Virus record (IMG/VR): IMGVR_UViG_3300049182_000044
Coordinates: 217,567 to 281,566 of that record
Reading direction: 5' to 3' (one strand)
Source of the DNA: a virus
Lineage: Duplodnaviria > Caudoviricetes
DNA: 64,000 nt
Shown here: piece by piece, positions 13,711 through 47,468 of the stretch
Numbering within the stretch: the first letter of the stretch is position 1
How the letters are laid out: each line of letters opens with the position of its first letter
The notes under the pieces: model-generated
The model's database searches: none
What the model was told of the DNA's origin: nothing
What the model saw: only the letters and a program-made list of their open reading frames with translations
Program-made: the position numbers and the translations under genes

Positions 13711-13788
13711 TGAACCTAATGGTTCTGCGAATCATGCAGTGCAGATCCCCTACGTCTACATTATAACATGAAAAATCGGAAACGTCAA
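13711..13788 (-). promoter_or_regulatory. sigma70 promoter P1 with downstream operator-like element
   Basis: TTGACG-17-TATAAT (13783-13788, 13760-13765); AACC-TAAT-GGTT element 35 nt from the -10; leader shared with P2. Confidence 0.85.
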
Positions 13789-13906
13789 CGAATACGGGGT
13801 CACGTGACCTGCAACCCCGTATGGCGCTTCAATGACAGGTTTGAAGTTTTATCACTTCATTATACCGATTCCCTTTATGGTACCTGCCACCCTAATGCAT
13901 TAGTAC

Positions 13907-14428
13907 TTAATGGTGATGCCGCACTTTTGCAGAAGGCTGTTTCAACGTCAAGCTGTGCTTCGACACCTTGCAGGAGCGACGATGCTCCGTTAAGGTCTCT
14001 AGTGCCGATGACGCAGGTTTTCTGCTTCGGCTACGAGAAGTAACAGACATTTCGTTCTGTTCCTTCAAGGGCTTTTCGCCCGGGATCGAAGTGGTCATCT
14101 CACTCGCCATTTCAAAGTCTCCCCAGGTTTCATCCGCCTCGTTCAGGATTTCCATCCCTTCGCAATCGAAGACGAAGCCTTCCTCGACCTTCTTGGCAAC
14201 CGCCTTCGACAGCCTTTGCAGGACGTCGGAGATGTTATTGCAAACAGTCTCGGAGTTCTTCACGTTCAACGGCGTTGAGCGAGAATGAGTGAATGTCACT
14301 CGAGTGAGTAGGTACTGCTTAGTCTTGATGACGTATTCAGCATGAATGATGCATTTTGCTGAAGTGGTTTCGGAAATGGCACGTTTAAGAAATGCCACTC
14401 CCAGGCTGATGCGGGTATTTGCGTACAT
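13907..14428 (-). CDS. hypothetical protein (possible WGR-like segment)
   Basis: ATG at 14428 after GGAG; KAVAKKVEEGF resembles a WGR-domain end (weak). Confidence 0.6.
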   Translation of the reverse strand: MYANTRISLGVAFLKRAISETTSAKCIIHAEYVIKTKQYLLTRVTFTHSRSTPLNVKNSETVCNNISDVLQRLSKAVAKKVEEGFVFDCEGMEILNEADETWGDFEMASEMTTSIPGEKPLKEQNEMSVTSRSRSRKPASSALETLTEHRRSCKVSKHSLTLKQPSAKVRHHH

Positions 14429-14543
14429 GAGGAACTCCAGGTTCAGATGTGCGCGACCCATCCCGAGGCTCCGGTCGCGCATGGACTTTTACGATGATTA
14501 ACATTTTGTATTTTCTTCCTTAGTATAGATACTATCGGCTACC

Positions 14544-14810
14544 GCCACATCGGGGCATCGACCGCTCGGTCGCCATACCCGTGGGCTCTAGCAGTAACGG
14601 ATTGTACCAACGGCTGGTTCACATCCCGTAATGAGCAATAGAGGGGATGCCGATCCTTAGTCAGTGAACGCCAGTCTTCTTCGTTATAGTCTCCAAGAGA
14701 AACGAATAGCGTTAGCTCTTTTCATCAATGACTTACTTCCAGTTCAGTAAACCGCCGCCTCGTACTGAACCTTCGTGCTGCAATCTTTAGATCGTCTTAT
14801 TCGATATGGC
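14544..14810 (-). ncRNA. candidate structured non-coding RNA, family unassigned
   Basis: About 270 nt without a credible ORF; terminal helix GCCATATCG/CGATGTGGC encloses several hairpins. Confidence 0.5.
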
Positions 14811-14839
14811 CTCCCTTTCTTTACGGTTAATGGGTTGAC

Positions 14840-15373
14840 TTACTTCTTCTTGCGTTTGGCCGGCTTCACCTCCTTAGGTTTGGCCGGTTTGATACGAGCG
14901 GCGTAGCGGAACTTACCGCGCACCATGAGCTTCAAGCTAAAGCTATCGAGGAACTCAGGAGTAAGCCCTGTCTCGCTGTACACGCGAGTAATCCTGAAGC
15001 CTGCCGCCACGCCCTTCTCGAAGGCGTTCAGCGTCAGCTTGCTCTTGTACCGATACTCGCCGTCCTTAGTCTTGTACTCAACGTCATACAAGGGCGCTTC
15101 GAGCTTGAAATACGGAGGTACGAGCCAGCGTGTGCCTAAAGCCTTCGCTTCAGGATGTTGAACGAAGCGCATTGCCTTGAACGACTCAGGCGGCGTTTCG
15201 TTCGTACCGACTTCAACGATGAAGTTCAACTGCGCCTTCACCAAGGTGCGAATGTTTTCGATTGAGTATTCAATACTCGCAATACCATCCTCCCTTGCTG
15301 GGCAGTATTGCTGCTCTTCGAGTTTCAGTACCCGATCAATCTTGAGCAGGTTGTCAGTGATGTACAAGATCAT
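14840..15373 (-). CDS. hypothetical protein, paralog of 30201..30722
   Basis: MILYITDNLLKIDRVL vs MILFITDNLLKVNQVL; K-rich end. Confidence 0.85.
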   Translation of the reverse strand: MILYITDNLLKIDRVLKLEEQQYCPAREDGIASIEYSIENIRTLVKAQLNFIVEVGTNETPPESFKAMRFVQHPEAKALGTRWLVPPYFKLEAPLYDVEYKTKDGEYRYKSKLTLNAFEKGVAAGFRITRVYSETGLTPEFLDSFSLKLMVRGKFRYAARIKPAKPKEVKPAKRKKK

Positions 15374-15385
15374 GTTATTACTTTT

Positions 15386-15805
15386 CTAGTCAGTCGATTT
15401 GATCCTGCACACGCGAGGACCAGTCTTGCGGAATGAAACAAACTTGCGCTGCTCAGACCGAACCATTAAGCGGTCGAGCTCCTTAAACGGGAACGTTACG
15501 TGCCTGAGGAAGGTCTCCTTCCCAAGCGCCTGCATCAGGCCACGCATGTCCTTTACCTTGCGCACCAGGCAACGCGGGCTGAAATCAACCTCAAGACCAT
15601 CACCGATGTACGCAACCTCTGAAGAATCCTCGTAGTAGTCGTTGGCGTGAACTTCCAACGAGGCCTTGAGGTCTTCAAATTCTTCCTTTAATGCACTGAG
15701 ACGCTCAATCTCAGGCAGAAGCTCTTTCATTCTTTCGACTGCCTTCTCGACCACAACCTCGGGTCGTTTGGCGCGTTGCATTCGCTCTACCCATGACTTC
15801 TTCAT
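15386..15805 (-). CDS. hypothetical protein
   Basis: 139 aa ORF with RBS, helical N-terminus. Confidence 0.8.
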   Translation of the reverse strand: MKKSWVERMQRAKRPEVVVEKAVERMKELLPEIERLSALKEEFEDLKASLEVHANDYYEDSSEVAYIGDGLEVDFSPRCLVRKVKDMRGLMQALGKETFLRHVTFPFKELDRLMVRSEQRKFVSFRKTGPRVCRIKSTD

Positions 15806-15826
15806 GATCGTCCCCTTGCGAATGAG

Positions 15827-16423
15827 TTAGGTTTTTGGTGCTGCAATGTCAGCGAGGACAATCGAGCGCGCCCCGTCCTTCAACCAGAAGCCGCGCCCCT
15901 CTTCAATCGGCTTCACGTAGTAGGCGAACTCAAAGTCCTGCGAGACGTCCTCGACATTGTGCAATTCAGGAATCGCATGGCGAAACGAACGCACAAATTC
16001 ATTTCGCCACTGGTTCAGCGCAACCCGATGATCGCGTGTCACCATCGGTTGATGGTTGGCATCGACCGTCCACTGGCGCATCCAGCTATCAACGTGATCG
16101 CGGAACGCTGCGGTCTGACTAGGACGATCAAGGCGCACGATCTTCAACAAGCGAACGAACTGCAGACTGTTCGGATCGACGATCTGTATCCCTGCAGCTT
16201 CGGCAAAGTAATCGAGCGCGAAGTTGCGGTTGACGAAGTACGAAGCCATCAAATCTCGAATCGTGGTTGCGAGGTCCGCAGCCGTATCGTCAGGTATACC
16301 GACTGCATCTGTCTTCAGTTCGCTGAAGTGAATCTTCGGGATTGCCTTCAAGTTTATCCCACGATTGAAGAAGGACAAATAACGCTGTGAGCCATCGAGC
16401 ATGTTCAGGACGATGTGTTTCAT
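15827..16423 (-). CDS. hypothetical protein
   Basis: 198 aa ORF with conserved leader. Confidence 0.8.
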   Translation of the reverse strand: MKHIVLNMLDGSQRYLSFFNRGINLKAIPKIHFSELKTDAVGIPDDTAADLATTIRDLMASYFVNRNFALDYFAEAAGIQIVDPNSLQFVRLLKIVRLDRPSQTAAFRDHVDSWMRQWTVDANHQPMVTRDHRVALNQWRNEFVRSFRHAIPELHNVEDVSQDFEFAYYVKPIEEGRGFWLKDGARSIVLADIAAPKT

Positions 16424-16459
16424 GATTGTGCTTTCTTTTTCAAGGTTGTAGAGGTCTTG

Positions 16460-16780
16460 CTAGAAGTTGATGTAGTACGCCGACCGACGATTGAACGCAT
16501 CGTACTCCAGCGTCAACTTGTTATACCTGTTACCGAAGCGGTTCTTGTCGAACACAGCGTCGATACGATCTGGAGTGATCTTGAATTCTGTCACCACTCC
16601 TTCAGCTGCCCAAATCGGCAGCTTCTCAGACAACTTCTCATACAGTAGGTGAAACGATCCTACTGCAACACTGCACTCATACGCACCGCGCCCATTGTGC
16701 TGCGTAACACCGCGCACGTTCAGGTGCCGGCGAATGAAGGGCACCAGCGGCGCCCTGTTTGCGATGGCTTGAACTGTCAT
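16460..16780 (-). CDS. hypothetical protein
   Basis: 106 aa, AAGGAG RBS. Confidence 0.8.
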   Translation of the reverse strand: MTVQAIANRAPLVPFIRRHLNVRGVTQHNGRGAYECSVAVGSFHLLYEKLSEKLPIWAAEGVVTEFKITPDRIDAVFDKNRFGNRYNKLTLEYDAFNRRSAYYINF

Positions 16781-16789
16781 GCGAACTCC

Positions 16790-17086
16790 TTAGTCGCACT
16801 TGTTGCAATGATTGAGTGGCGACACTCCGTGTGGACAGCGCTGATCGCGTGTCTTGATTTCATCGACACGACGCAGCAAGTACTGGTGGTGCTGCCAGTG
16901 CGAGTACATCTGGCGCATCGCTGTAATGAGAGCGAGGAGAAACACCACGAACAGGAAGCCGTAAACCTTGTCGCCGGCCTGCCACTTCGCGTATGCAAGC
17001 GACCCCGTGATCGCGGTGAACGCGGAGGTCATAGTCACAGCGAAGCACGTAACCAAGAGGTCGAGGTCTTTGCGATTTGCTTTCAT
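16790..17086 (-). CDS. small membrane protein (2 TM)
   Basis: ATG at 17086 after AAGGAG; hydrophobic LLVTCFAVTMTSAFTAITGSL and VYGFLFVVFLLALITAM. Confidence 0.75.
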   Translation of the reverse strand: MKANRKDLDLLVTCFAVTMTSAFTAITGSLAYAKWQAGDKVYGFLFVVFLLALITAMRQMYSHWQHHQYLLRRVDEIKTRDQRCPHGVSPLNHCNKCD

Positions 17087-17096
17087 GGTCATCTCC

Positions 17097-17756
17097 TTAG
17101 TAGCCATGATGAACGCGCATCCGGCGAATGACAGTTGCGCGATGATTCGGGTTGTACACATCGAGTGCCGGGTCGTCTGCCGCTGCGTCCTCGTCCTCGA
17201 GCTTGCGACGCTCAACACCGCGCTGCACACCTTCGGCGTACTTCGCATGATGCTCTGTACTGGCCTCGAAAATGTTATCGAGCTTGCCTGCGTAGCCCGC
17301 TTCAAAGCCGTCAACCTCAGCCTGCTGCAAGCTGTACGCCTTGGCTTCTTCTGCGTCCTGCTTCTGACGCTCTGCCCATTCCGCAGCGTAGTACTGCTCA
17401 CGCGGGAAGCCTTTCGGTGTGCACCACCAGCCTTCAGTCGGGCCGTCCTGTTCCAGCCACTGCTCAACATCAACGAAGTCCGTGATCGGACGATTTTCGT
17501 CAACGTCGTACTCGAACACCGGAATCCATTCATGCGTGGTGTACAAGTAACGCCAGAACGTGTCCTTGAAACCCGGCACCGACAGCAGCTGATCGGCTGT
17601 CAGGTGCGACGTTTGAATCACCGTGCGCTTACCCTGGTACACGATTCCCAGGTGTGCCGAATCGTCGAGGTCGAGCACCTTTTCAACCTCATGCAGCGTG
17701 TACACATGACCGCGCTGGGGATAAACCTTTTGAATCTGAACTTGAATAGCAGACAT
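17097..17756 (-). CDS. hypothetical protein
   Basis: ATG at 17756 after conserved leader and AAGGAG. Confidence 0.8.
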   Translation of the reverse strand: MSAIQVQIQKVYPQRGHVYTLHEVEKVLDLDDSAHLGIVYQGKRTVIQTSHLTADQLLSVPGFKDTFWRYLYTTHEWIPVFEYDVDENRPITDFVDVEQWLEQDGPTEGWWCTPKGFPREQYYAAEWAERQKQDAEEAKAYSLQQAEVDGFEAGYAGKLDNIFEASTEHHAKYAEGVQRGVERRKLEDEDAAADDPALDVYNPNHRATVIRRMRVHHGY

Positions 17757-17811
17757 GCTGTTCTCCTTAACTGGTTGGTAAATTTCAAACAATGGGGCTT
17801 GCGCCCCGATT

Positions 17812-18258
17812 TCAGATGTGCGGCCGCTTCTTCTTGTCGAACTTGGCCTTCTTCACTTCTTCCTTGTCAACCTTCGGCTTCTTCTTGCCTTTGGCCTTCT
17901 TTTCCTTCTTGACCTTCTTCGGCGTGCCATCGTCGTCCGATGCTTTCGCCTTCTTCTTGTTCTTCTTCGGCTTGTCGCCGTCATCGCCCGAACCTTCGAG
18001 TTCATCAAGCGGCGTGATCTCGAAGTCTTCCTCCTCGCCTGGCTTCGGGATCAAGCCAGCCTCGCGGCCGAACTTGCGCAGCTTCTTGAAGAAGGCATAA
18101 AAATCTTCCGACGCGAGCGTGAAGCCCGATTTCGTCGGTAGCAGCTCGTCGTCATCACCGGTCTTGAACTCCCGAAGATTGACCAAGTCCTTGCCTTTGA
18201 ACTCCTCGCGCTTACCTACGATTGCGGTGGACTTGTTTTTAGTGTGCTTGAATTGCAT
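17812..18258 (-). CDS. PC4/YdbC-like ssDNA-binding protein with K-rich tail
   Basis: EEFKGKDLVNLREF...LLPTKSGFTL fits the PC4 pattern (xFKGKxxxDIRxx...PxxKGISL). Confidence 0.75.
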   Translation of the reverse strand: MQFKHTKNKSTAIVGKREEFKGKDLVNLREFKTGDDDELLPTKSGFTLASEDFYAFFKKLRKFGREAGLIPKPGEEEDFEITPLDELEGSGDDGDKPKKNKKKAKASDDDGTPKKVKKEKKAKGKKKPKVDKEEVKKAKFDKKKRPHI

Positions 18259-18316
18259 GTAGTACCCCTTATCGTGAACCTGCGATTGATCGAATCGCCA
18301 CGTTTTGTCCGATTGC

Positions 18317-18441
18317 GCAAACCTGATGGTTCTGTGAATCGCGCAGTGCAGATCCCCTACGTCTACATTATAACATAGATTCTGCGTTTTGTCAATAAAT
18401 CAACCCCTGACGGTCTAGGCTGCCAAAACCGTCAGGTTTGC
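18317..18441 (-). promoter_or_regulatory. promoter cassette P2: sigma70 promoter between inverted 18-bp elements
   Basis: TTGACA(18390-95)-17-TATAAT(18367-72); GCAAACCTGATGGTT 18317-31 and AACCGTCAGGTTTGC 18427-41. Confidence 0.9.
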
Positions 18442-18451
18442 AGAATCCGCG

Positions 18452-18751
18452 TCATACGTGGAAAGGCTCCGTATTGCGAATACGGTCGTACTCGAATCCG
18501 ATCAACTTCGGCTGCGTAACGAGTGAGCATTTGATCTCTGCGTCAGCGTACAGGTCTTCCGGCAGCTTGAAGGGTATATCCTTTTGGCGCCGATGGTGGC
18601 CGATGAAATTGTCGAGGCAGTCTTCGAGTCGGGCCTTCGTCGCCTTGATCGCATCAACGTCAGTCGATGCTAACGATAGTGTATGACACTTGATGTTGCG
18701 ACGAGGTATGTTGATCGAGACTTCAAATAGATGCAAATGCATAGCAGACAT
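18452..18751 (-). CDS. hypothetical protein
   Basis: 99 aa ORF with RBS. Confidence 0.75.
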   Translation of the reverse strand: MSAMHLHLFEVSINIPRRNIKCHTLSLASTDVDAIKATKARLEDCLDNFIGHHRRQKDIPFKLPEDLYADAEIKCSLVTQPKLIGFEYDRIRNTEPFHV

Positions 18752-18763
18752 GGCAGTTCCTTT

Positions 18764-19003
18764 CTATTTTATACTGCGGCCTACGTGCTTGCGCTTCTTC
18801 GCCTTTGCTGCACGGCGTTCGTCACGCGACATAAAATCGGCTGGGCCTAACGGCTCAGTCTTCGGTTTCGGTTTAACCTCCACTCGCTCTACGTTCTGTC
18901 CTGCGATTGCGAGTGCTGCCATTTGCAGCATCAAGCTTTTAGACAAGGACGAGCGCATAGATCCAGCGCCGATAACGATGGTCTTTTTCTTTTCGTCAGT
19001 CAT
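18764..19003 (-). CDS. hypothetical protein
   Basis: 79 aa, ATGA-coupled to upstream ORF. Confidence 0.7.
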   Translation of the reverse strand: MTDEKKKTIVIGAGSMRSSLSKSLMLQMAALAIAGQNVERVEVKPKPKTEPLGPADFMSRDERRAAKAKKRKHVGRSIK

Positions 19004-19239
19004 GTTGGGAGTACGGGTTGTTTGAAGGTGCGGGTGATCTGCGTTGGGGTTTCGCCTTGTACGTCGATGCGGAGATCAGTCATGCGGCAGACGCGGAGAA
19101 CACAGCACGGGCCGACATTGACCCAGAGTACACCACGTTCATCGGTAATGATTTCAACCGTGTGACCCGGTGCCGTAATGTCGGTGTGGCAGTCCATCAA
19201 TTGTTCGTCAGATGGACGTAGTAGATGATTTTGTGGCAT
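19000..19239 (-). CDS. hypothetical protein
   Basis: ATG at 19239 after AAAGGA (MPQNHLL...). Confidence 0.7.
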   Translation of the reverse strand: MPQNHLLRPSDEQLMDCHTDITAPGHTVEIITDERGVLWVNVGPCCVLRVCRMTDLRIDVQGETPTQITRTFKQPVLPT

Positions 19240-19352
19240 GTGATGTCCTTTCGGAATCAAGAATGTAGGCTGCGGCCTAAAATGCAATGCACAGTTCGTA
19301 TGTCTTACAGTTTTACGTCCTGTGCATGTTCTTTACAATTTTGCAGAAACCG

Positions 19353-20565: not shown

Positions 20566-20575
20566 ATGGCCTCCC

Positions 20576-21391: not shown

Positions 21392-21399
21392 AAGGGCCT

Positions 21400-29138: not shown

Positions 29139-29636
29139 CTAGCCTTGGCTTTCATCAGCGGCGGCTTCAGGCAAATACAGCTGGTTTGATCGTAGCGTAT
29201 CGACAATCGACTCTACGAGTCCGACGCCGACGCCAGGTAGTTCAAGTAAACCCTTTTCAGTCATACGAAGCAGTTGTGCAATGTGCGTGATACCGTGCTT
29301 CTCAAGCGCAGTAAGCGCACGTTGCCGGAATCCGTAATCAATCAGCGGCTTGTTCAAGCGACGTGCTAGGTGCATTGGGTTCTGCACTCGGGTTTTCACA
29401 ACCTGAGCATCCGGAACTCCTTCGCCAGAAGCCTGAGGCGTTTCAGCTTTCTTTTCAACCCAACCGCCGACTGGCATGTTCACGCGCAGACCATGCTGGA
29501 CTTTCTCCTCGTTCACGATCTTGTCAACGTCTTCCATCGAGTGCCCGCTAATCAGGAGAGCACGTACCGAAGCGCGAAGCATTTCCTGCAATGCGTAGTT
29601 CATGTTGGATTTTTCAAACAGTTCCTTGTTGTTCAT
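29139..29636 (-). CDS. protein with RNA polymerase alpha-subunit C-terminal-domain-like region
   Basis: LNKPLIDYGFRQRALTALEKHGITHIAQLLRMTEKGLLELPGVGVGLVESIVDTL aligns by eye with alpha-CTD ([55 protein letters not shown]). Confidence 0.75.
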   Translation of the reverse strand: MNNKELFEKSNMNYALQEMLRASVRALLISGHSMEDVDKIVNEEKVQHGLRVNMPVGGWVEKKAETPQASGEGVPDAQVVKTRVQNPMHLARRLNKPLIDYGFRQRALTALEKHGITHIAQLLRMTEKGLLELPGVGVGLVESIVDTLRSNQLYLPEAAADESQG

Positions 29637-32790: not shown

Positions 32791-33240
32791 CTACAAACCT
32801 TTGCGCAGGGTTGTCATCAGTTCAATGAAGTCTTCCCGATGCTCAAGGGCAAACTTAAGCAGCTCTCGGGCGTTGCGTATACCCATGAGCTTGTTCAACG
32901 ACCTCAGGTGGTCATTGATGAACGAGCGAACCCGCATCGACGAGCCAAACAGCGTCATGAGGTTGCGCAGCATTTCACAGACCGTGGTCTGCCGATCCAG
33001 GTTGAGCTGGACGGCAATCGAGTCTTGCGTATAGCCACTGATGAACAGCCTGACAACCTGATAGGCTGTCTCAGTTATGGTTATAGGCTCTGTGCTGAAT
33101 GCGTGATCGAGATTGCGGTTCAGATCTTGCAATACAAACCCGTATGCCGCACCTACCTCGTGAGCGTCCACGCGATCAGCTGAGTACCGAAGTGCCGTTG
33201 ACAGGATGTGCCTGTAACAGTCCTCAGTTAAAATTTTCAC
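32791..33240 (-). CDS. LuxR/GerE-type HTH protein
   Basis: ITETAYQVVRLFISGYTQDSIAVQLNL...TV...LRNLMTLFG and LRSLNKLMGIRNARELLKFALEH. Confidence 0.65.
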   Translation of the reverse strand: MKILTEDCYRHILSTALRYSADRVDAHEVGAAYGFVLQDLNRNLDHAFSTEPITITETAYQVVRLFISGYTQDSIAVQLNLDRQTTVCEMLRNLMTLFGSSMRVRSFINDHLRSLNKLMGIRNARELLKFALEHREDFIELMTTLRKGL

Positions 33241-33307
33241 GATACCTCCCCAAGCTGGTGAGCCATGCTGTACCTTTCAAATGATGATTGATGAATTTCC
33301 TACTTGC

Positions 33308-33430
33308 GCAACCTGACGGTTTTGCGAATCGTGTGGGGCAGGTCCCCCACGCCTCGATTATAACACACATTCCCTGATTTGTCAAATCGACGGGCCAGGA
33401 ACGGGCATACGTCAGAACCGTCAGGTTTGC
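33308..33430 (-). promoter_or_regulatory. promoter cassette P3: sigma70 promoter between inverted elements
   Basis: TTGACA(33380-85)-17-TATAAT(33357-62); GCAACCTGACGGTT 33308-21 and AACCGTCAGGTTTGC 33416-30. Confidence 0.9.
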
Positions 33431-39585: not shown

Positions 39586-39586
39586 G

Positions 39587-39973: not shown

Positions 39974-39983
39974 TCATTACTCC

Positions 39984-40433: not shown

Positions 40434-40441
40434 ACTGCCTC

Positions 40442-40813: not shown

Positions 40814-40815
40814 GA

Positions 40816-41880
40816 TTACCACTCCCCGCGTTCTTCGTCTTGCATTGCGCTCTTCGCGGTCAGCATGCGAACCATTGTGAACATTTGCTTCGGTTCTGTG
40901 AATGTGCACTGCATCGACGCCGGCTTGTTTTCAGTAGCAGCAATGACCTTGACGCCCTTGGGATGCTTGTACTTCAGCTCGGTCATGAACGAGTACATAT
41001 CCGGGCCGCTGCACAATGCTGCAGCGACGTCTTCGTTCAGCGTGTGTTCTTTGCGTGTGGTGCGAACGAAGTAGAGATTGCCTCGTGAACTGCCACTACC
41101 GTCAGAGTGGGGATACTTCTTCAGCCACTCAGAGAACTCACCGCGATACTTGATTAAAATGGTGGGACGATCCTTCTGAATCCACTCTTCGTCGGGAATA
41201 TCATCCGGGTCACGGCGAGGCTGGCTCAAACGAACCGGACGCTCTTCCTCGTCATCGCTGCGGTCTACGTCACCATCACCCTCGTCTTCATCGTCATACC
41301 GGGAAGAACGAGACGATACGGACTTCTCAACCTTGTTGTACGGGTCTTTACCGTCCTTCGGCTTGAAGTCATCTTCGGGGAAGCCGCAAGGGTCACCATA
41401 CGGGTATGCATTGCGGATAATGTCGATCACATGGGCGATGAAGCTGTGTGGGTTGCGCCAAACATCGTGGTCGATAACCGAATCGAACAGCGTATGCGAG
41501 AAGCGATGCGAACGCGCCCTCACCAGGTACGCTTCGATCTCCTCGAACGTGTTAGCGTCATACGCATCCTTGAGAAGACGATTCAGGTATTTGTTCTTCG
41601 TGCGGTCGGTCTTACTACGGCGACCCAGCTCGTTGTACAGGATGTGCTTCCAAACAGCGGGCAAATGACGAGCGTAGAATTGCTTGAACTCCTCAGGGTC
41701 AATGACCGCGCCATGATTGAGTGTCCAGAGTGCGTCATCCTTACCGCCGACGAGTGCGACAACATGCAACGGGATGCGTTGCTCTTTCACTTCAGTGTTG
41801 ATGCCGAAGAATGAAGCCATACGTGTGAAACCCGGAACACATGCTTCGCTAGCTTTGAGGATGTTCAGTGTGGTGTACAT
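40816..41880 (-). CDS. hypothetical protein with N-terminal domain shared with 41983..42768
   Basis: MYTTLNILKASEAC...IPLHVVALVGGKDDALWTL. Confidence 0.85.
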   Translation of the reverse strand: MYTTLNILKASEACVPGFTRMASFFGINTEVKEQRIPLHVVALVGGKDDALWTLNHGAVIDPEEFKQFYARHLPAVWKHILYNELGRRSKTDRTKNKYLNRLLKDAYDANTFEEIEAYLVRARSHRFSHTLFDSVIDHDVWRNPHSFIAHVIDIIRNAYPYGDPCGFPEDDFKPKDGKDPYNKVEKSVSSRSSRYDDEDEGDGDVDRSDDEEERPVRLSQPRRDPDDIPDEEWIQKDRPTILIKYRGEFSEWLKKYPHSDGSGSSRGNLYFVRTTRKEHTLNEDVAAALCSGPDMYSFMTELKYKHPKGVKVIAATENKPASMQCTFTEPKQMFTMVRMLTAKSAMQDEERGEW

Positions 41881-41929
41881 GATTTATTATGCCTTCCCAA
41901 ATATAGGTTGTGAATTTCGTACAAGGTTG

Positions 41930-41968
41930 AAGTGGGTGTGCGCCCCTTTTTATCTAGCACACCCACTT
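41930..41968. terminator. intergenic hairpin (12-bp stem)
   Basis: AAGTGGGTGTGC/GCACACCCACTT. Confidence 0.6.
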
Positions 41969-41982
41969 AGTGCATCTACTGC

Positions 41983-42768
41983 TTACAGCTTGGCGATGTG
42001 GTCACGCAGATATGCACGAACGTCTTTCGGGTCTGCCAGGTCCCCCACGTATTCGGTGAACAAGCGGCTGCCGGTCGGCGACGAGGCGTACTTCACAGCT
42101 TCATCAAACGATTTCTGCTTGTTGCGAATGATGCGGCCGATTGCGACGTAGAAGGCCCCGAGGACTTCAAAGTTCGGTGTAGTAGGTGCTGCAACGCCAG
42201 CCAGATTGACCAGGTCGAGCGGAGGGTTGTTCTTCGCACCACCTTGAATCGCATCCGAACGAGCAGGAGCTTCTTCAGCAGCGCCGCCTGCGAGATCAGT
42301 CGTCGAGGTGTTCGCCAGGTCAACTGTCGGGTTTGCAGCGGTCGGAGGAGCGATTGCAACTGCGCCTTCACCGTTTTCCAGCTGCGTAGTCGGCAATGCG
42401 TCTGCCTGGACGGCTACTTGTGGGAACACAGCCAGGTATGCAGCGTTGTACTTCGGCGTGATTTCAGCCAGTGCCTTGGCCTTGCCGTTACGCAGGGCGC
42501 GCACGATGAACTCCTCGTGCTCTTCAGCGTTCTTGTGACCGAACTGCGCCAGGACTGCCTTTTCCATTGCCGGCCACTTCGCATGAGTGGAAGTGACGTT
42601 GAACACCCATTCAACGTCATCGACAACGTTGCTGTTTGCGATGGCGAAGATCGGGAACTTGTCTTCCGGTTTCCATTCCGGGTTCTGACGCTTCAGCCAG
42701 TTATCGACAGTGTTGACACGGGAAGTCATGGCGTGGCTGGCGCGGAGTGCTTTGATAGTGGTAAACAT
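41983..42768 (-). CDS. hypothetical protein, Ala-rich linker
   Basis: 261 aa; highly biased codon usage suggests high expression. Confidence 0.85.
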   Translation of the reverse strand: MFTTIKALRASHAMTSRVNTVDNWLKRQNPEWKPEDKFPIFAIANSNVVDDVEWVFNVTSTHAKWPAMEKAVLAQFGHKNAEEHEEFIVRALRNGKAKALAEITPKYNAAYLAVFPQVAVQADALPTTQLENGEGAVAIAPPTAANPTVDLANTSTTDLAGGAAEEAPARSDAIQGGAKNNPPLDLVNLAGVAAPTTPNFEVLGAFYVAIGRIIRNKQKSFDEAVKYASSPTGSRLFTEYVGDLADPKDVRAYLRDHIAKL

Positions 42769-42827
42769 CTTGGTATTTCCTCTCTTAGTTATTTATGAAA
42801 TGGTACTACAAGTTGTGACAGCAAAAA

Positions 42828-43007
42828 CTACTTCGATTCTTTTTGGCAGCGATTGACCTCCTCTAACGCATCACGGCATTGCTTCTCAACACCGATGAAG
42901 TATCCGAGCATAGAGTCTTTAGCCGTGCCATTAGGCATGTGGCGCTCGACCATGCGAATGCTTTCAATCGTGTTAGTGAGTGCCTGCTTAATGATGTTGA
43001 TGTTCAT
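42828..43007 (-). CDS. small hypothetical protein (59 aa)
   Basis: MNINIIKQALTNTIESIRMVERH...; GAGGGG RBS; below track cutoff. Confidence 0.65.
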   Translation of the reverse strand: MNINIIKQALTNTIESIRMVERHMPNGTAKDSMLGYFIGVEKQCRDALEEVNRCQKESK

Positions 43008-43845
43008 CTGAACCCCTCATTTCTGGCTTCGGTAACATGCCTGAGGTAATCAAAAAGTCGATGGTACGTTTCGTCTCACCCGTCGTACCGTTGATGCTGG
43101 TGTAGCGTGTCGGTATAGTTTTGCGCAAGTGTGTATCAATCTTATGCGCGAAACGCGCTAGGCCGATTACGCGATCACATGTCTGCACCTTCTTCACAAC
43201 CTCGGCCTCAGTCGTCGATTCAATGAACACGAACTGCAAATGCGGGAAGCATCTTTCGATCGCTTGAGCTTGAACAGACATCATACCGATGATGCCTACC
43301 CTTGCCTTGCGCGTTTGCAAATCACGACGCTCTGTGCCCGCATAAGGTTCTTGTCGCAATGAACGCTCGATCATTACTGCGTCGCCCTGGTACATAGCGT
43401 TGCGCTGGATACCTTTGAGCAGCTCTTCCATGCGATCAAGCTGTGGCTGTTGTTGGCGTACGACCTCAGCAGCGATCAACGCGATCAACGGCTTAAATGC
43501 CTGTTCGTAGGCATTAACTTCAGCTGCTGCCGGCTCCTGAACTGGAGCGACCTCCTCTTTCTGGGATTGCGCTGCCTCTTGCACTTGCGCATGATAGTAC
43601 GCTGCGGCCTCTTCCAATTGACGCTTGAAGATGCTGATCTGAAACGTCTTGCGATGCTTCCAGTTGTCGATTACAGCGTTCTGTGCGGCCTCGATATGCT
43701 TAGCACGAATGCCGTTAATTGATCCTGTGCTTGCGATCATCAGGCCAGGATTGTTTTCATCAATGTGCTTTACAACCTTGACCCAATCGCCCAACACCCA
43801 GTTGCTACGGCGCTTGACGGTTTCAGTGGTAGGAACGTTCTTCAT
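42988..43845 (-). CDS. hypothetical protein
   Basis: 285 aa after conserved leader. Confidence 0.8.
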   Translation of the reverse strand: MKNVPTTETVKRRSNWVLGDWVKVVKHIDENNPGLMIASTGSINGIRAKHIEAAQNAVIDNWKHRKTFQISIFKRQLEEAAAYYHAQVQEAAQSQKEEVAPVQEPAAAEVNAYEQAFKPLIALIAAEVVRQQQPQLDRMEELLKGIQRNAMYQGDAVMIERSLRQEPYAGTERRDLQTRKARVGIIGMMSVQAQAIERCFPHLQFVFIESTTEAEVVKKVQTCDRVIGLARFAHKIDTHLRKTIPTRYTSINGTTGETKRTIDFLITSGMLPKPEMRGSDEHQHH

Positions 43846-43890
43846 GAGGATCTTTCTAAATGGTTGGTAAAGGTTTTACAAGTGCGTCGA

Positions 43891-44391
43891 TTAAGGTTGA
43901 CGCAAACCCAGGCGAACAACAGCTTCAAACGAGGAGCAGAAGCGCAAACGATACACATAGCTTTCGTAGAGCTTATGCACCTTAGCTACGTCTGTTTCAT
44001 GTGAACAGAACGTAGCTTTGAACCAATCGAAGGTCGATTCAAGGCGGCCTGCAAGAAACTTCTGAACGTCGAACGGGCGATCTGCAAAACGATCTGCCCA
44101 CAAGTCGTGCGTGTGTTTCTTGAGCTGACCGATTGGTCTTCCATCTTCAACATCGACAGCGCGTACCAGCCAGTTGTTGATACCGTCGATAAGCTGTGCT
44201 TCAACTACCAAGTACCAGGTGCAGCTTGCTGCATCATAGTAGTAACGGTTGACGTAGCGGCTATCTGCTACTGCGATTTGATTACCGGAAGGAAATCCAG
44301 CCGGGAGCCCTTCAGCAACAGGTGCTGTTGAAGAAGCGATTACGGGGTTGTGTGTGGTCTTCATCATAAATGTCCGCATGATGTTAGTCAA
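43891..44391 (-). CDS. hypothetical protein (start uncertain)
   Basis: About 160 aa ORF. Confidence 0.7.
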   Translation of the reverse strand: MTNIMRTFMMKTTHNPVIASSTAPVAEGLPAGFPSGNQIAVADSRYVNRYYYDAASCTWYLVVEAQLIDGINNWLVRAVDVEDGRPIGQLKKHTHDLWADRFADRPFDVQKFLAGRLESTFDWFKATFCSHETDVAKVHKLYESYVYRLRFCSSFEAVVRLGLRQP

Positions 44392-44392
44392 G

Positions 44393-44713
44393 TTAGTTTG
44401 AATCGACGAGGCAATCGGGTCGCGCTACCATGTTCATTATCAGCAAAGTTTCCTCTACTGAAGCGCACACAAGATAGGGCCAATTGTCTTTTGCCAAATG
44501 GCGATACGATCTGTGTAACGGGCAATGTTGTGATGTACACGTTACGTCTTTGAACTTCATGTTCACTAGTGTTTGAGCAATTTCGCCTAAACCTATGAGA
44601 GCTGCATCTCGAGTTTCAAACTCTTTGATGACGTTTGCACCGACGACCTTTCCGCCAATGATATTGGCGATTATCGCTACGTGCATAGTCATAGGATTGT
44701 ATCCGGCAACCAT
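44393..44713 (-). CDS. hypothetical protein
   Basis: ATG at 44713 after TAAGGAG. Confidence 0.7.
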   Translation of the reverse strand: MVAGYNPMTMHVAIIANIIGGKVVGANVIKEFETRDAALIGLGEIAQTLVNMKFKDVTCTSQHCPLHRSYRHLAKDNWPYLVCASVEETLLIMNMVARPDCLVDSN

Positions 44714-44723
44714 GAAAGTCTCC

Positions 44724-45218
44724 TTAGAGCCAGTCAGGTGGAAGTCGATACGCACCATACTGAGTACGACACCTGTCGAGATCGAAGTCGGTGATACTGT
44801 GAAGTATGTCACCGCATTGAACGACGAATCGAGTGTGATTGTACTTACGAACCCTCAGTAAGTGGTTGTGAAACACGCTGCTCAGCAAAGTGGCGAATGT
44901 CAGCGCGTCGTGCTTGTTCTTGCAGTACAAGTTGTACAGGACTGTACTGTCCGCATCCGGTACGCTGATTTCAACACACCAGTAATCGGTGTTGTCGAAG
45001 TCGAACGCAGGTATTGGTTTGCAAACCCGTTCGATGCCTGCGTCCTTCAAGCTTGTTACAAGGTAGTCTGCTTTAACTGGAACGGTGCGAACGTAAATAC
45101 GAGCGAGGTCGTTGACGATAGCGTACCAGTGAACGTACCGGCCTTGACCATCGCGTGGTGAATCTTCACCTGAAGGCGATGCAAAGCGAGTAGTAAGTGC
45201 CATGAATAAGTTTTTCAT
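44724..45218 (-). CDS. hypothetical protein
   Basis: 164 aa after GACCTCCACAACC leader. Confidence 0.75.
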   Translation of the reverse strand: MKNLFMALTTRFASPSGEDSPRDGQGRYVHWYAIVNDLARIYVRTVPVKADYLVTSLKDAGIERVCKPIPAFDFDNTDYWCVEISVPDADSTVLYNLYCKNKHDALTFATLLSSVFHNHLLRVRKYNHTRFVVQCGDILHSITDFDLDRCRTQYGAYRLPPDWL

Positions 45219-45263
45219 GATCGGTGCTTTCTTGTGTTAGGTTGTGGAGGTCCTACTAAACTA

Positions 45264-45611
45264 CTAGCACTGCTGATACGCTTGTTGCATCACCAGTGCG
45301 CAAAGGTCGCGCAATTTTATGGAAGGAGAGCGAAGTTCGATGTTGAACTCCACGTTATGAAGAAACTGCATCTGCACCATTTCGGCGAAAGCGTAAAAGC
45401 CGAAACCATCCTCGAAGTGCTTATCCCATTCATGAATGATGATAGCAGCTTCATTTTCGAGAATGCTGAGTTCAGTAGTACTATGCGTTCGGATGATTGA
45501 ATCGAGAATGCCTGTGCATTCAAGCGCTAATTGCGGATCAGCTTCGACTGCATTAGCGAGCAAGTAGCGAAACAGGCGCGAAAGGTTCGCGAATTTGAAG
45601 AAGTGGCTCAT
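45264..45611 (-). CDS. hypothetical protein
   Basis: 115 aa after AAGACCTCTACAACC leader. Confidence 0.75.
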   Translation of the reverse strand: MSHFFKFANLSRLFRYLLANAVEADPQLALECTGILDSIIRTHSTTELSILENEAAIIIHEWDKHFEDGFGFYAFAEMVQMQFLHNVEFNIELRSPSIKLRDLCALVMQQAYQQC

Positions 45612-45663
45612 GGCTTGTCCTATCTTGTACTGGGTTGTAGAGGTCTTACGATGGAACTGCGTA

Positions 45664-46062
45664 CTACGGTTTCAAGACCATGCTAAACATTAGATGGCCG
45701 TCGATCCAAGTTGTTAGGAACTCGCCTTCGATGCTGGTTGTAACAGGTATCTCAAGATTCTTACTGAGCTTTAGAGCAAGCTCTGCTGCCTTGACCCTAT
45801 CAGACATGAACGCGACAACCTCGAGACTGAAGTCGTACTCAATACCTTCCTTACTGGAAACGTCTAGCTTAACAGTCACCTGATCGTCGAGGTCCGGTAG
45901 TTCGTCGGCACTAGAAATGTCCTTGACCTGAACACCTGACATGCCCAACAGGCCGACTAAACGCGATACATCCGACTTCACAGTCTGCGTGAACAGCGTT
46001 CCAAGGTCTGTCCAGATGTTGAAGTTTTGAACTTGCGCCGGGTTTGTTGCATTCGTTTCCAT
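45664..46062 (-). CDS. hypothetical protein
   Basis: 132 aa, AAAGGA RBS. Confidence 0.8.
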   Translation of the reverse strand: METNATNPAQVQNFNIWTDLGTLFTQTVKSDVSRLVGLLGMSGVQVKDISSADELPDLDDQVTVKLDVSSKEGIEYDFSLEVVAFMSDRVKAAELALKLSKNLEIPVTTSIEGEFLTTWIDGHLMFSMVLKP

Positions 46063-46090
46063 GATACTTCCTTTACAGTTGGTGAATTCC

Positions 46091-46267
46091 TTACTTGAAC
46101 TTCGAGTGCCCGCATGACGGGCATTTCAAACATTCACTCAGGCTGCCGTGACTGCCTTGTCGCCAGAGCACCATCGGGCCGAAACGCCATGCTTCAACCC
46201 GCCTGTAGTCGTATGACAGCGCAACACCTACGACCATCGGTGTCTTGCAAACCTTGCAGTTAGCCAC
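46091..46267 (-). CDS. small zinc-ribbon protein (58 aa)
   Basis: GTG start after AAGGAG; CKVC...CPSCG; below track cutoff. Confidence 0.65.
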   Translation of the reverse strand: MANCKVCKTPMVVGVALSYDYRRVEAWRFGPMVLWRQGSHGSLSECLKCPSCGHSKFK

Positions 46268-46541
46268 TGGCCTTCTCCTTCTTTAGGACTTGATCTGGCA
46301 AGTGATCGGGACCAACCGACACCTTCAACGCAGCGCGAATGTCGCGCAACTCAGTAAGGCATTGATCGAGTACCTCCTTTGCAACGTCAACCTTCGGCGG
46401 CGTCCTGCCCAGTGCTGCCGATACGTTCTGCAACCTCGTGATCGTACCTTCAAGGTTGCGGTATGCGGTAATGCGCTGCTTTTCAGTGTCGTACTTCAAA
46501 TGCATGTACGCATCGGCGTCACTCAGTGTGTTCTTAGCCAT
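46260..46541 (-). CDS. hypothetical protein
   Basis: 93 aa. Confidence 0.75.
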   Translation of the reverse strand: MAKNTLSDADAYMHLKYDTEKQRITAYRNLEGTITRLQNVSAALGRTPPKVDVAKEVLDQCLTELRDIRAALKVSVGPDHLPDQVLKKEKASG

Positions 46542-46842
46542 TTGCAGGCTCCCGCATCAAGGTTTGCAGGCGGTGTTGCAGGCGACCCATATCCTTCACA
46601 CACTTCAACCCGACGGCCTTCTTGCCGTTGTCGGTGAGTGCGTATTGCTCCTTGCCGACCTTTGCGACAAGACCGAGGTTGACCGCGCAACGCACTTCCT
46701 CAGGAATGAGTGTCATATCGGTGCGAAGGATTTCCTCCACCGTGGGGTTTTCATACCACGTAATGCGATCCAGAATTGCTTCGCACACCAAAATCTCGCG
46801 GGGATAAATGTCTACGAACTGGTCATTGATCTTGACGTCCAT
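46534..46842 (-). CDS. small winged-helix-like protein
   Basis: PEEVRCAVNLGLVAKVGKEQYALTDNGKK wing pattern. Confidence 0.65.
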   Translation of the reverse strand: MDVKINDQFVDIYPREILVCEAILDRITWYENPTVEEILRTDMTLIPEEVRCAVNLGLVAKVGKEQYALTDNGKKAVGLKCVKDMGRLQHRLQTLMREPANG

Positions 46843-46848
46843 GATGTT

Positions 46849-46894
46849 CTCCTAACTGGTTGGTGAATTTCAAACAGTGGGGCCGAAGCCCCAC
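46849..46894 (-). repeat. intergenic hairpin + leader + SD module (near-copy of 17763-17807)
   Basis: CTCCT(T)AACTGGTTGGT(A/G)AATTTCAAACA(A/G)TGGGG-loop-GCCCC. Confidence 0.75.
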
Positions 46895-46904
46895 AAACCT
46901 GCAA

Positions 46905-47264
46905 TCAGTCTTGCACTATCACATCGAAGTGCAAATCGTCCTCGCCTGGGAGGTGACTAATGTTACGGTCAAACTCCGTCATGCGGTTCGGCCCGAGGTC
47001 CCACTCGTAGCCTTTCAGGGCGTAGTCATTGTCTTCGCACAATGCCCAATCGACCTTACGTTCGACGAACTCCTCGAACGCTGTCCGATCAGCGAAGAAC
47101 GCAATGTTGATGTACCCGTCCCAGCCAACCGGCCACGTATGGAAGCGGTAAACGGCTGCGAACACTGCGTCGTTCGGCCACGCGATACCCAGCGTATTGC
47201 ACTTGGCAACGTTCTTCATGACTGCTTGTGCTACCTGTTGTCCTACGCTTGTTGTGGTGTTCAT
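46905..47264 (-). CDS. hypothetical protein, first gene after P4
   Basis: ATG at 47264 after conserved leader. Confidence 0.8.
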   Translation of the reverse strand: MNTTTSVGQQVAQAVMKNVAKCNTLGIAWPNDAVFAAVYRFHTWPVGWDGYINIAFFADRTAFEEFVERKVDWALCEDNDYALKGYEWDLGPNRMTEFDRNISHLPGEDDLHFDVIVQD

Positions 47265-47345
47265 ATACTCTTTCAAGTGATGGTTGATAAATTTCCTGCC
47301 TTTGCAACCTGTGGTTTTTGACGTCCCGTGATTCCGCCCTATTGT

Positions 47346-47468
47346 GCAAACCTGATGGTTCTGAATGTCGCGGTGCAGGTCGTATCCACGTCTTCATTAT
47401 ATCATGTTTTTGGCGTCCTGTCAAATCCGACGCACAGATGAAGATAGGCGCTAAAACCGTCAGGTTTG
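47346..47468 (-). promoter_or_regulatory. promoter cassette P4: sigma70 promoter between inverted elements
   Basis: TTGACA(47419-24)-17-TATAAT(47396-401); GCAAACCTGATGGTT 47346-60 and AACCGTCAGGTTTG 47455-68. Confidence 0.9.

What the first reader, a model, noticed from the sequence alone, without database searches (positions are those of the whole stretch)
13711..47468. Fixed-geometry promoter cassettes: sigma70 promoters bracketed by an inverted 18-bp element
Seen: four near-perfect promoters (P1 13760-88, P2 18367-95, P3 33357-85, P4 47396-424). In all four, an element of consensus CA(G/A)AACC(G/A)TCAGGTTTGC ends exactly 35 nt from the -10 box inside the transcribed leader. In P2-P4 a second copy in the opposite orientation starts 30-31 nt upstream of the -35, about 109-110 bp centre to centre. 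The element is a pseudo-palindrome (AACC-N4-GGTT) with an asymmetric core. P1 and P2 also share about 35 nt of leader (GTAGACGTAGGGGATCTGCACTGC). Known: paired operators about 113 bp apart form the GalR repression loop, and promoters flanked by inverted recombinase sites form invertons. Inference: (a) a DNA-looping shut-off system for early promoters, (b) invertible promoter switches controlling accessory gene blocks, or (c) a MITE-like mobile promoter unit. I know of no description of this arrangement in such a phage.
Basis: partly seen in the sequence, partly recalled or inferred. Interest (0 to 1): 0.82.

Follow-up and report, generated by a model that had tools for sequence, protein, structure and literature searches.

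The report
Phased operator pairs boxing phage early promoters
A 281-kb uncultured soil phage and its relatives box each strong host-type early promoter between two inverted copies of a short DNA word, and the spacing changes only by whole turns of the DNA helix, which suggests that an unidentified protein bridges the two copies to control early transcription.

Summary
The window holds four homologous cassettes of about 200 bp on the minus strand. A fifth, with the same geometry, lies on the plus strand at genome 42,062. Each has an upstream element, a consensus extended -10 sigma70 promoter, a leader, the inverted element 32 nt after the -10, then a CA-rich ribosome site. The element occurs nowhere else in the 281,566-bp genome.

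Fourteen more cassettes were found in nine metagenomic contigs, from eight or nine related phages, many at orthologous positions. The word differs by lineage, but its upstream and downstream copies change together. Only the ends CAAAC...GTTTG stay constant.

Two findings decide the reading. Six independent length changes in the cassettes are 9.3-31.2 nt, each within about 1 nt of a whole helical turn. The element also keeps its distance to the promoter, not to the start codon. Both point to recognition on DNA, most likely a protein bridging two operators (a GalR-like loop) to throttle or shut off early promoters. The protein is unidentified.

Invertons and MITEs are unlikely. An RNA duplex in read-through transcripts is not excluded. 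The cassettes also mark the borders of shuffled accessory gene blocks, like T4 PeSL cassettes. This scan has noted boxed early promoters in other phages before. The tool for finding sequencing runs was closed, so inversion could not be tested on reads.

The parts
13827..13846 (-). P1 upstream element remnant (CTTCAAACCTGTCATTGAAG). It keeps the CAAACC half-site; the first C of CAAAC lies 55 nt before the -35.
   Evidence: It is conserved in the L014 orthologue: the 17-nt core CAAACCTGTCATTGAAG is identical.
13792..13822 (-). P1 GC-rich hairpin (ATACGGGGT...ACCCCGTAT) inserted between the upstream remnant and the -35. It looks like a terminator for the upstream unit.
   Evidence: Fold (z -3.5). 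The stem co-varies in the L014, L018, L019, L020 and L021 orthologues.
13760..13788 (-). P1 promoter: TTGACG, 17-nt spacer, TATAAT with TG extended -10.
13710..13727 (-). P1 downstream element (CAGAACCATTAGGTTCAA), 32-nt gap after the -10.
18424..18441 (-). P2 upstream element (sense strand GCAAACCTGACGGTTTTG).
   Evidence: a 24-nt inverted repeat with the leader copy; 0 of 200 shuffles reached its score.
18406..18414 (-). P2 third partial copy (ACCGTCAGG). It pairs with the upstream element to give a 9-11 bp hairpin followed by a U-rich tract.
18367..18395 (-). P2 promoter: TTGACA, 17-nt spacer, TATAAT with TG.
18317..18334 (-). P2 downstream element (CAGAACCATCAGGTTTGC).
33413..33430 (-). 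P3 upstream element.
33357..33385 (-). P3 promoter: TTGACA, 17-nt spacer, TATAAT with TG.
33307..33324 (-). P3 downstream element (CAAAACCGTCAGGTTGCG).
47452..47469 (-). P4 upstream element. It lies inside a long hairpin (GGCGCAAAATCGTCA-AACC-TGACGGTTTTAGCGCC) directly after the stop codon of the upstream gene.
   Evidence: z -3.7.
47396..47424 (-). P4 promoter: TTGACA, 17-nt spacer, TATAAT with TG.
47346..47363 (-). P4 downstream element (CAGAACCATCAGGTTTGC).
47303..47320 (-). P4 second, degenerate downstream copy (CAAAAACCACAGGTTGCA), followed by the shared AGGAAATTYATCAAYCATCA leader motif.
13728..13759 (-). Shared leader segment of P1 and P2 (GTAGACGTAGGGGATCTGCACTGC...). The corresponding P2 segment is 18335-18366.

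Best explanation
Each cassette is the start of an early transcription unit read by the host RNA polymerase.

Layout. The cassette runs from the end of the upstream unit (often a terminator-like hairpin) through an upstream operator, a consensus extended -10 sigma70 promoter and a leader to a downstream operator at about +26 to +43, then a CA-rich translation start region.

The operators. They are inverted copies of a lineage-specific word of 12-18 bp with constant CAAAC...GTTTG outer ends. They are read as double-stranded DNA by an unidentified protein, probably encoded by the phage.

Proposed mechanism. Protein bound at the two sites bridges them across the promoter. This closes a loop of about 107 bp, or one to four helical turns longer, that throttles or shuts off early transcription, as the GalR, NagC or DeoR loops do.

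Second role. The cassettes also sit at the junction between conserved modules and shuffled blocks of accessory genes. They may therefore serve as recombination joints, like PeSL cassettes.

Shown: the anatomy, restriction to promoters, conservation in relatives, co-variation of the two copies, and helical quantisation of the spacing.

Inferred: protein binding, bridging and the direction of the effect (repression).
For: 1. Restriction to promoters. In the 281,566-bp genome, matches to the 18-mer at up to 3 mismatches lie at the cassettes, apart from one isolated 3-mismatch match at genome 140867. In relatives, exact copies of each lineage's word lie only at cassettes. Three 1-mismatch copies lie elsewhere and look like chance.

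2. Conservation. Fourteen further cassettes were found in nine contigs. Several are orthologous: P1 = L014 c2 = L018 = L019 c2 = L020 = L021; P2 = L014 c1 = L019 c1; P4 = L166 c1 = L167.

3. Co-variation. The word differs by lineage (CAAACCTGACGG, CAAACATCAGGA, CAAACATTCGAT, CAAACCCACGG, GCAAACATGCG). The upstream and downstream copies carry the same variant. Inverted-repeat scores of 11.5-17 were reached by 0 of 200 shuffles.

4. A constant half-site. Every one of the 19 cassettes keeps CAAAC upstream, even where the rest of the upstream copy has decayed.

5. Helical quantisation.
- The distance from CAAAC to the -35 is 44-45 nt in nine cassettes with unrelated spacer sequences, and 55-56, 65 or 75-76 nt in the others of the main clade.
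- The distance from the -10 to GTTTG is 42-45 or 53-54 nt.
- The six independent length changes are 11.0, 20.5, 31.2, 10.5, 9.3 and 10.3 nt, all within 1.1 nt of multiples of 10.4. The simulation gave about 1e-5; by my own arithmetic the naive chance is about 1e-4.
- The period scan peaks at 10.3-10.5 with R 0.95.

6. Anchoring to the promoter. The distance from the -10 to the start codon varies from 38 to 223 nt. In L019 c1 the element lies inside the first called gene.

7. No conserved RNA fold. The element forms a hairpin only in the window's clade and in L022. There is no Rfam match.
Against: - No binding protein was found. The genome has no hit above threshold to the HTH_3, LacI-type, HU/IHF or resolvase families.
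- The one HTH-like gene beside a cassette, the first ORF after P3, scores only E 0.027 to GerE. It had no homologue in a search of 5.8 billion proteins, although the cassettes are conserved.
- The two most distant lineages, L022 and L023, are out of phase with the main clade. Their own upstream positions differ by 21-24 nt, about two turns.
- I noticed the phasing after looking at the distances, and it rests on six events.
- Upstream copies often lie in or next to terminator-like hairpins.
- In a read-through RNA the two copies are predicted to pair in 8 of 12 cassettes. An RNA function is therefore physically possible.
- Consensus promoters need no activator, but nothing here shows that the effect is repression.
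Confidence: 0.45

Rival explanations
1. RNA-level function. When transcription reads through from the upstream unit, the upstream copy and the leader copy pair into a 13-24 bp duplex that encloses the promoter region. Host RNase III could cut this duplex to separate or destabilise early messages. Alternatively, the upstream copy, displayed in the loop of the preceding unit's 3' hairpin, acts as an antisense partner of early leaders.
For: - Complementarity is perfect or nearly so.
- The predicted fold of read-through RNA contains the long-range helix in 8 of 12 cassettes.
- In the folds of L020, L166 c2 and L167, the invariant AAACAUY lies in the loop of a hairpin with variable stems. In L018 the flanking AAUCC/GGAUU pair in the same way. 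The L166 c2 and L167 hairpins are followed by U runs.
- In the window's clade the leader copy is itself a small hairpin. L014 c2 and c3 keep it through a C-to-U change that still allows a G-U pair.
Against: - RNA pairing gives no reason for spacing to change only in steps of about 10.4 nt.
- Differences between the two copies within a cassette are not compensated. P2 and P4 share the same C-A mismatch. The upstream copies of different cassettes resemble each other more than their own partners.
- P1-type cassettes keep only the CAAAC half-site upstream.
- The element is not a hairpin in most lineages.
- The phage encodes no RNase III, although a host enzyme could act.
Confidence: 0.2
2. A passive composite of terminator, promoter and leader, as in PeSL cassettes, with no dedicated binding protein. 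On this view the inverted copies are by-products of cassette duplication and gene conversion. The main role of the repeats is to provide homology for shuffling accessory gene blocks.
For: - Upstream of the P4-type cassette, synteny is tight. Downstream of it, gene order is a mosaic in the window, L166 and L167.
- The PC4-like gene directly after the P2-type cassette is present in the window and L019 but absent in L014.
- L014 c3 has no counterpart in the window.
- Upstream flanks fold more stably than shuffles (z of -2 or below) in 10 of 19 cassettes.
- PeSLs are defined as a sigma70 consensus promoter plus a stem-loop terminator in hyperplastic regions (PMC2839356, PMC4122927).
Against: - It does not explain why an inverted copy of the leader word is kept upstream.
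- It does not explain why length is conserved where sequence is not.
- It does not explain why all six length changes are whole helical turns.
- It is compatible with the best explanation as a second role.
Confidence: 0.15
3. Invertible promoter switches (invertons). A site-specific recombinase flips the segment of about 125 bp between the inverted repeats.
For: - Inverted repeats of 13-24 bp flank a promoter that lies almost in the centre of the segment.
- Synapsis of sites this close together could also require helical phasing.
Against: - The genome is rated 100% complete and shows no match to the resolvase (serine recombinase) or phage-integrase (tyrosine recombinase) families.
- All 19 cassettes in ten contigs point with the genes. 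Two independent assemblies agree.
- P1-type cassettes lack an intact upstream arm.
- The leader side is conserved and the other side is not, so the flipped state would have no conserved function.
Confidence: 0.04
4. A MITE-like mobile promoter unit that spreads by transposition.
For: It is a short unit with terminal inverted repeats. It is present in several copies, and L014 c3 shows one gain or loss.
Against: - Cassettes keep orthologous positions across deep divergence.
- No direct repeat flanks the ends (sequence).
- No TnpB-type match was found.
- There are only five copies, all in front of gene blocks and all oriented with them.
Confidence: 0.03

Closest known systems
GalR (gal operon) repression loop, and similar NagC, DeoR and AraC loops
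   Same: Two operators lie upstream and downstream of the promoter, about 107-115 bp apart and on the same face of the helix. The promoter lies inside the loop. Spacing is tolerated only in whole helical turns.
   Different: - No LacI/GalR-family protein was found in the phage, and the binding protein is unknown.
- The sites are inverted copies of an asymmetric, lineage-specific word rather than two near-palindromes.
- The arrangement is repeated at five consensus early promoters of a lytic jumbo phage instead of at one cellular operon.
PeSL (promoter-early stem-loop) cassettes of T4-like phages (Arbiol et al. 2010, PMC2839356; Comeau et al. 2014, PMC4122927)
   Same: Both are repeated composite regulatory cassettes with a consensus sigma70 early promoter preceded by a stem-loop. 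Both lie at the borders of variable accessory-gene regions where gene order is shuffled between relatives.
   Different: - PeSLs are not described with an inverted copy of a leader word on the other side of the promoter, nor with phased spacing.
- Here there are only five cassettes per genome, each heading a block of 4-14 kb rather than single ORFans.
- Recombination between the cassettes was not tested here.
Phage phi29 p4/p6 nucleoprotein hairpin at the early promoters A2c and A2b (PMC3100819)
   Same: A lytic phage switches off host-polymerase early promoters by bending the DNA that carries them between protein-binding sites containing inverted repeats.
   Different: - phi29 has one control region with known proteins, and the complex also activates a late promoter.
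- Here the arrangement is dispersed over five promoters and the proteins are unknown.
Dispersed operator regulons such as the phage P1 C1 operators or RK2 KorB (from my own knowledge, not checked in papers here)
   Same: One protein-specific word is placed at many promoters around a replicon. The word and the protein can co-evolve.
   Different: Those systems do not place two inverted copies at phased distances around each promoter. Both belong to temperate or plasmid maintenance circuits.

Membership tests
Operator-pair DNA-looping repression (GalR type) | Two copies of one binding site flank the promoter. | tested here: met
   An upstream and a downstream copy are present in P2, P3 and P4 and in L014 c1, L018, L019 c1, L022, L023 c1, L023 c2, L166 c1, L166 c2 and L167. 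The remaining cassettes keep the CAAAC half-site upstream.
Operator-pair DNA-looping repression (GalR type) | The sites are kept in helical register, so spacing varies by whole turns. | tested here: met
   The six independent length changes are within 1.1 nt of multiples of 10.4. The outer span is 120-124, 132, 134, 142, 144, 154, 154 and 164 bp. L022 and L023 are out of phase with the main clade.
Operator-pair DNA-looping repression (GalR type) | A bivalent DNA-binding repressor binds both sites. | tested here: inconclusive
   No HTH_3, LacI or HU/IHF hit above threshold was found in the genome. The weak GerE-like ORF after P3 is an orphan. Divergent phage proteins could escape these searches.
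Operator-pair DNA-looping repression (GalR type) | The promoter is repressed when both sites are occupied. | not testable with these tools
   This needs reporter or in vitro transcription assays.
PeSL regulatory cassettes | A sigma70 consensus early promoter is repeated in the genome. | tested here: met
   There are five cassettes, four with 12 of 12 or 11 of 12 hexamer matches plus a TG extended -10.
PeSL regulatory cassettes | A stable stem-loop (terminator) lies directly upstream of the promoter. | tested here: inconclusive
   Ten of 19 upstream flanks fold with z of -2 or below. The L166 c2, L167 and L018 hairpins have clear U runs. W_P3, W_P5 and L014 c1 show no significant fold. The generic terminator scan showed no enrichment.
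PeSL regulatory cassettes | The cassettes lie at the borders of hyperplastic, shuffled accessory-gene regions. | tested here: met
   Synteny is conserved upstream of the P4-type cassette and is a mosaic downstream. Genes are gained or lost directly after the P2-type cassette.
PeSL regulatory cassettes | Recombination between cassettes produces mini-circles or indels. | not testable with these tools
   This needs inverse PCR or read-level data.
Inverton (invertible promoter) | Inverted repeats flank a promoter. | tested here: met
Inverton (invertible promoter) | A cognate site-specific recombinase is present. | tested here: not met
   No match to PF00239 or PF00589 was found in the complete genome, and both searches passed their controls.
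Inverton (invertible promoter) | Both orientations are present in the population. | tested here: inconclusive
   All 19 cassettes point with their genes. L014 and L015, two independent assemblies, agree. Read-level evidence was unavailable.
MITE-like element | Target-site duplications and non-orthologous insertion sites. | tested here: not met
   No direct repeats flank the ends. Positions are orthologous in relatives.
RNase III long-range processing stem | Compensatory changes maintain the pairing within each cassette. | tested here: not met
   The differences between the two copies in P2, P3, P4, L014 c1 and L167 are uncompensated. They include a recurring C-A mismatch. The change of word occurs genome-wide, not cassette by cassette.

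The most novel reading that the evidence does not exclude
A clade of uncultured jumbo phages uses a dedicated 'early-promoter clamp'. In this reading, a phage protein, possibly one delivered with the DNA, binds an inverted pair of lineage-specific words. It closes a helically phased micro-loop of about 107 bp around every consensus host-type early promoter. This would time or insulate early transcription of whole blocks of accessory genes. The word and the protein would co-evolve from lineage to lineage.
Probability: 0.35. Interest if true: 0.7.

Novelty: new variant of a known kind. Interest (0 to 1): 0.55.

Why it matters
How lytic jumbo phages without their own RNA polymerase time their early genes is poorly known. 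The usual answers are polymerase-modifying proteins, not site-specific operators.

The sequence data here suggest a dispersed, phased operator pair around every strong early promoter. The evidence is helical quantisation of the spacing, which can be tested directly with reporters carrying 5-bp or 10-bp insertions.

The five word variants also offer a handle for finding the binding protein by co-variation. The cassettes are compact, strong promoter units that may be controllable. They also mark where accessory gene blocks are exchanged in this phage group.

Tried and rejected
- Close relatives in the phage collection: none at DNA level.
- Protein search: the nearest listed phages are PaBG, Lu11 and HRDY3, at 29-33% identity to the window's SbcC-like protein.
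- PaBG, Lu11 and HRDY3: none has a perfect TTGACA-17-TANAAT. A full scan of Lu11 found no boxed promoter; the best inverted-repeat score was 7.
- Pattern scans of viral contigs: single chance hits or nothing.
- My one metagenome scan: the pattern was too loose and returned only chance matches. In 126 matches the repeat never extended beyond 9 nt. This serves only as a null.
- Distant relatives of the GHKL-type ATPase in IMG/VR: no cassettes. One AT-rich boxed promoter in L144 is a singleton.
- The LuxR-like ORF after P3 as the binding protein: the Pfam match is weak (E 0.027) and it had no homologue in any relative. I rejected it as the general factor.
- Pfam and PHROG scans of the conserved early ORFs beside the cassettes: nothing DNA-binding.
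- Own-genome searches for resolvase, integrase, TnpB, RNase III, HTH_3, HU/IHF and LacI: negative or below threshold.
- Rfam: no family.
- IHF-site resemblance: seen in only one lineage's word, so dropped.

Full report
**What is there.**
The window is the last 64 kb of a 281,566-bp virus record. Earlier notes of this scan describe it as an uncultured soil jumbo phage distantly related to Lu11 and PaBG. My protein search agrees: the nearest listed phages share 29-33% identity with the window's SbcC-like protein.

The four promoters lie at the stated coordinates, but on the minus strand, which carries essentially all long ORFs of the window. P2, P3 and P4 are perfect TTGACA-17-TATAAT with a TG extended -10. 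P1 has TTGACG.

The 18-mer matches six times in the window, against 0.17 expected by chance. In the whole genome, matches at up to 3 mismatches are those six, one at genome 42123-42140 and one isolated 3-mismatch match at 140867. The match at 42123 belongs to a fifth cassette on the plus strand. Its promoter is at 42062-42090, and it has the same 32-nt gap from the -10 to the element and a degenerate upstream copy.

An alignment shows that the whole unit is homologous among the cassettes. It runs in this order:
- upstream element
- a spacer whose length is conserved but whose sequence is not
- the -35 and -10
- a leader, of which P1 and P2 share at least 24 identical nucleotides
- the downstream element
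- in several cassettes, a shared AGGAAATTCAYCAAYCATCA stretch before the ribosome site

P1 keeps only CAAACCTGTC of the upstream copy, followed by a 31-nt GC-rich hairpin. P4 has an extra, degenerate downstream copy.

The gap from the -10 to the element is 32 nt. The gap from the upstream 18-mer to the -35 is 27-28 nt. Centre to centre is 106-107 bp.

**Relatives.**
Homologues of the GHKL-type ATPase downstream of P1 and of the SbcC-like protein upstream of P4 led to metagenomic contigs. Nine of these contigs hold 14 more cassettes.

Several cassettes lie at orthologous positions:
- P1 = L014 c2 = L018 = L019 c2 = L020 = L021
- P2 = L014 c1 = L019 c1
- P4 = L166 c1 = L167

The neighbouring proteins are only 45-80% identical, so these are old, stable features and not recent insertions.

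The element differs by lineage:

| Lineage | Element word |
|---|---|
| Window, L014 | GCAAACCTGACGG |
| L018, L167 | CAAACATCAGGATTT |
| L019, L020, L166 | CAAACATTCGATTTT |
| L022 | CGCAAACCCACGG |
| L023 | GCAAACATGCG |

Within each genome the upstream copy and the inverted leader copy carry the same variant. Where both copies are intact, no shuffle of 200 reached the observed inverted-repeat score. Only the ends CAAAC...GTTTG are constant, and all 19 cassettes keep CAAAC upstream.

Exact copies of each lineage's word occur only at cassettes. Lu11 has nothing comparable. One relative at 49% identity (L016) has early-type promoters without the element.

**What decides between DNA and RNA.**
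I measured two distances: from the first C of CAAAC to the -35, and from the -10 to GTTTG.

| Distance | Value (nt) | Cassettes |
|---|---|---|
| CAAAC to -35 | 44-45 | nine cassettes with unrelated spacer sequences |
| CAAAC to -35 | 55-56 | P1, L014 c2, L019 c1 |
| CAAAC to -35 | 65 | L018 |
| CAAAC to -35 | 75-76 | L019 c2, L020, L021 |
| -10 to GTTTG | 42-45 | all others |
| -10 to GTTTG | 53-54 | L019 c1, L021 |

- These amount to six independent length changes of 11.0, 20.5, 31.2, 10.5, 9.3 and 10.3 nt. All lie within 1.1 nt of a multiple of 10.4.
- The simulation gave about 1e-5. By my own arithmetic the naive chance is about 1e-4. I treat it as about 1e-3, because I saw the pattern after looking at the data.
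- A period scan of the main clade peaks at 10.3-10.5 with R 0.95.
- The outer span takes the values 120-124, 132, 134, 142, 144, 154, 154 and 164 bp, that is 0 to 4 added turns.
- Only a function on double-stranded DNA, with proteins on defined faces of the helix, predicts this.
- The element also follows the promoter and not the gene. The distance from the -10 to the start codon ranges from 38 to 223 nt, and in L019 c1 the element lies inside the first called gene.
- The element forms a small hairpin only in the window's clade and in L022. There is no Rfam match.

**What keeps the RNA rival alive.**
- The upstream copies often lie in or beside terminator-like hairpins of the preceding unit. 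In L020, L166 c2 and L167 the invariant AAACAUY is predicted to lie in the loop.
- In a read-through RNA the two copies are predicted to pair in 8 of 12 cassettes.
- Against pairing, the differences between the two copies are not compensated. P2 and P4 share the same C-A mismatch. Upstream copies of different cassettes resemble each other more than their own partners.

**Inverton and MITE readings.**
- The genome is rated 100% complete. It shows no match to the resolvase, phage-integrase or TnpB-type families, and the searches passed their controls.
- All 19 cassettes point with their genes. Two independent assemblies of one relative agree.
- No target-site duplication is visible.

**The missing protein.**
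- Searches of the genome for HTH_3, LacI-type and HU/IHF domains found nothing above threshold.
- The first ORF after P3 has a weak GerE-like match. It has no homologue in relatives that carry cassettes, so it is not the general factor.
- The first gene after P2 is a PC4-like single-strand DNA-binding protein.
- An early ORF at 29139-29636 has an RNA polymerase alpha-CTD-like domain above the Pfam cut-off. Its link to the cassettes is untested.

**Relation to known systems.**
By geometry the cassettes work most like GalR-type repression loops. No family membership can be claimed without the protein.

By genome role they resemble the PeSL cassettes of T4-like phages. Those combine a consensus early promoter with a stem-loop at the borders of shuffled accessory regions (PMC2839356, PMC4122927). 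Here, too, synteny is tight upstream of the P4-type cassette and a mosaic downstream, and genes come and go directly after the P2-type cassette.

I found no description of this arrangement for the Lu11/PaBG group. Earlier notes of this scan report boxed early promoters in other, unrelated phages. The general layout may therefore be common, even if it is little described.

**Verdict.**
The best reading is a phased operator pair for an unidentified protein that bridges each early promoter (0.45). The rivals are an RNA duplex (0.2), a passive PeSL-like composite (0.15), an inverton (0.04) and a MITE (0.03). It is a new variant of a known kind of control.

Noticed in passing
window 29139-29636 (-): A 165-aa early ORF has a C-terminal domain that matches RNA polymerase alpha-CTD above the Pfam cut-off (26.7 bits, E 1.2e-6). 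Alpha-CTD binds A-rich upstream DNA on the same helical face where the upstream elements lie. It could be a decoy, or it could take part in control of the cassettes.
   Followed up: partly
window 17812-18258 (-): The first gene after P2 has a PC4-type single-strand DNA-binding domain (E 2.7e-8) and a long lysine-rich tail. The gene is present after the orthologous cassette in L019 and absent in L014.
   Followed up: partly
window 32791-33240 (-) and 33241-33267: The first long ORF after P3 has a weak GerE/LuxR-like helix-turn-helix and no detectable homologue anywhere. It starts with GTG, overlapping the stop codon of a 9-codon mini-ORF (MAHQLGEVS) in the leader.
   Followed up: partly
window 3908-3936 (-): Another strong promoter-like site (TTGACA-17-TATACT with TG) has neither element. 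It may be an early promoter outside the cassette family.
   Followed up: no
L014 7300-7330; L020 590-620: The phage group's CTGTAAA(T) motif, read as a middle promoter in earlier notes of this scan, lies directly after the downstream element in L014 c3. In L020 it lies directly before the -35. Early and middle signals may therefore be stacked at some cassettes.
   Followed up: no
L144 12010-12130: A distant relative, a 215-kb IMG/VR contig, has one AT-rich promoter boxed by a 17-nt inverted repeat with gaps of 29 and 31 nt. The word is not repeated elsewhere in that genome, so this may be chance.
   Followed up: partly
window 13593-13694 (-): A 33-codon ORF with a good ribosome site starts 16 nt after the P1 downstream element. 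A 46-codon ORF follows it, ahead of the GHKL ATPase gene. Whether either is translated is unknown.
   Followed up: no
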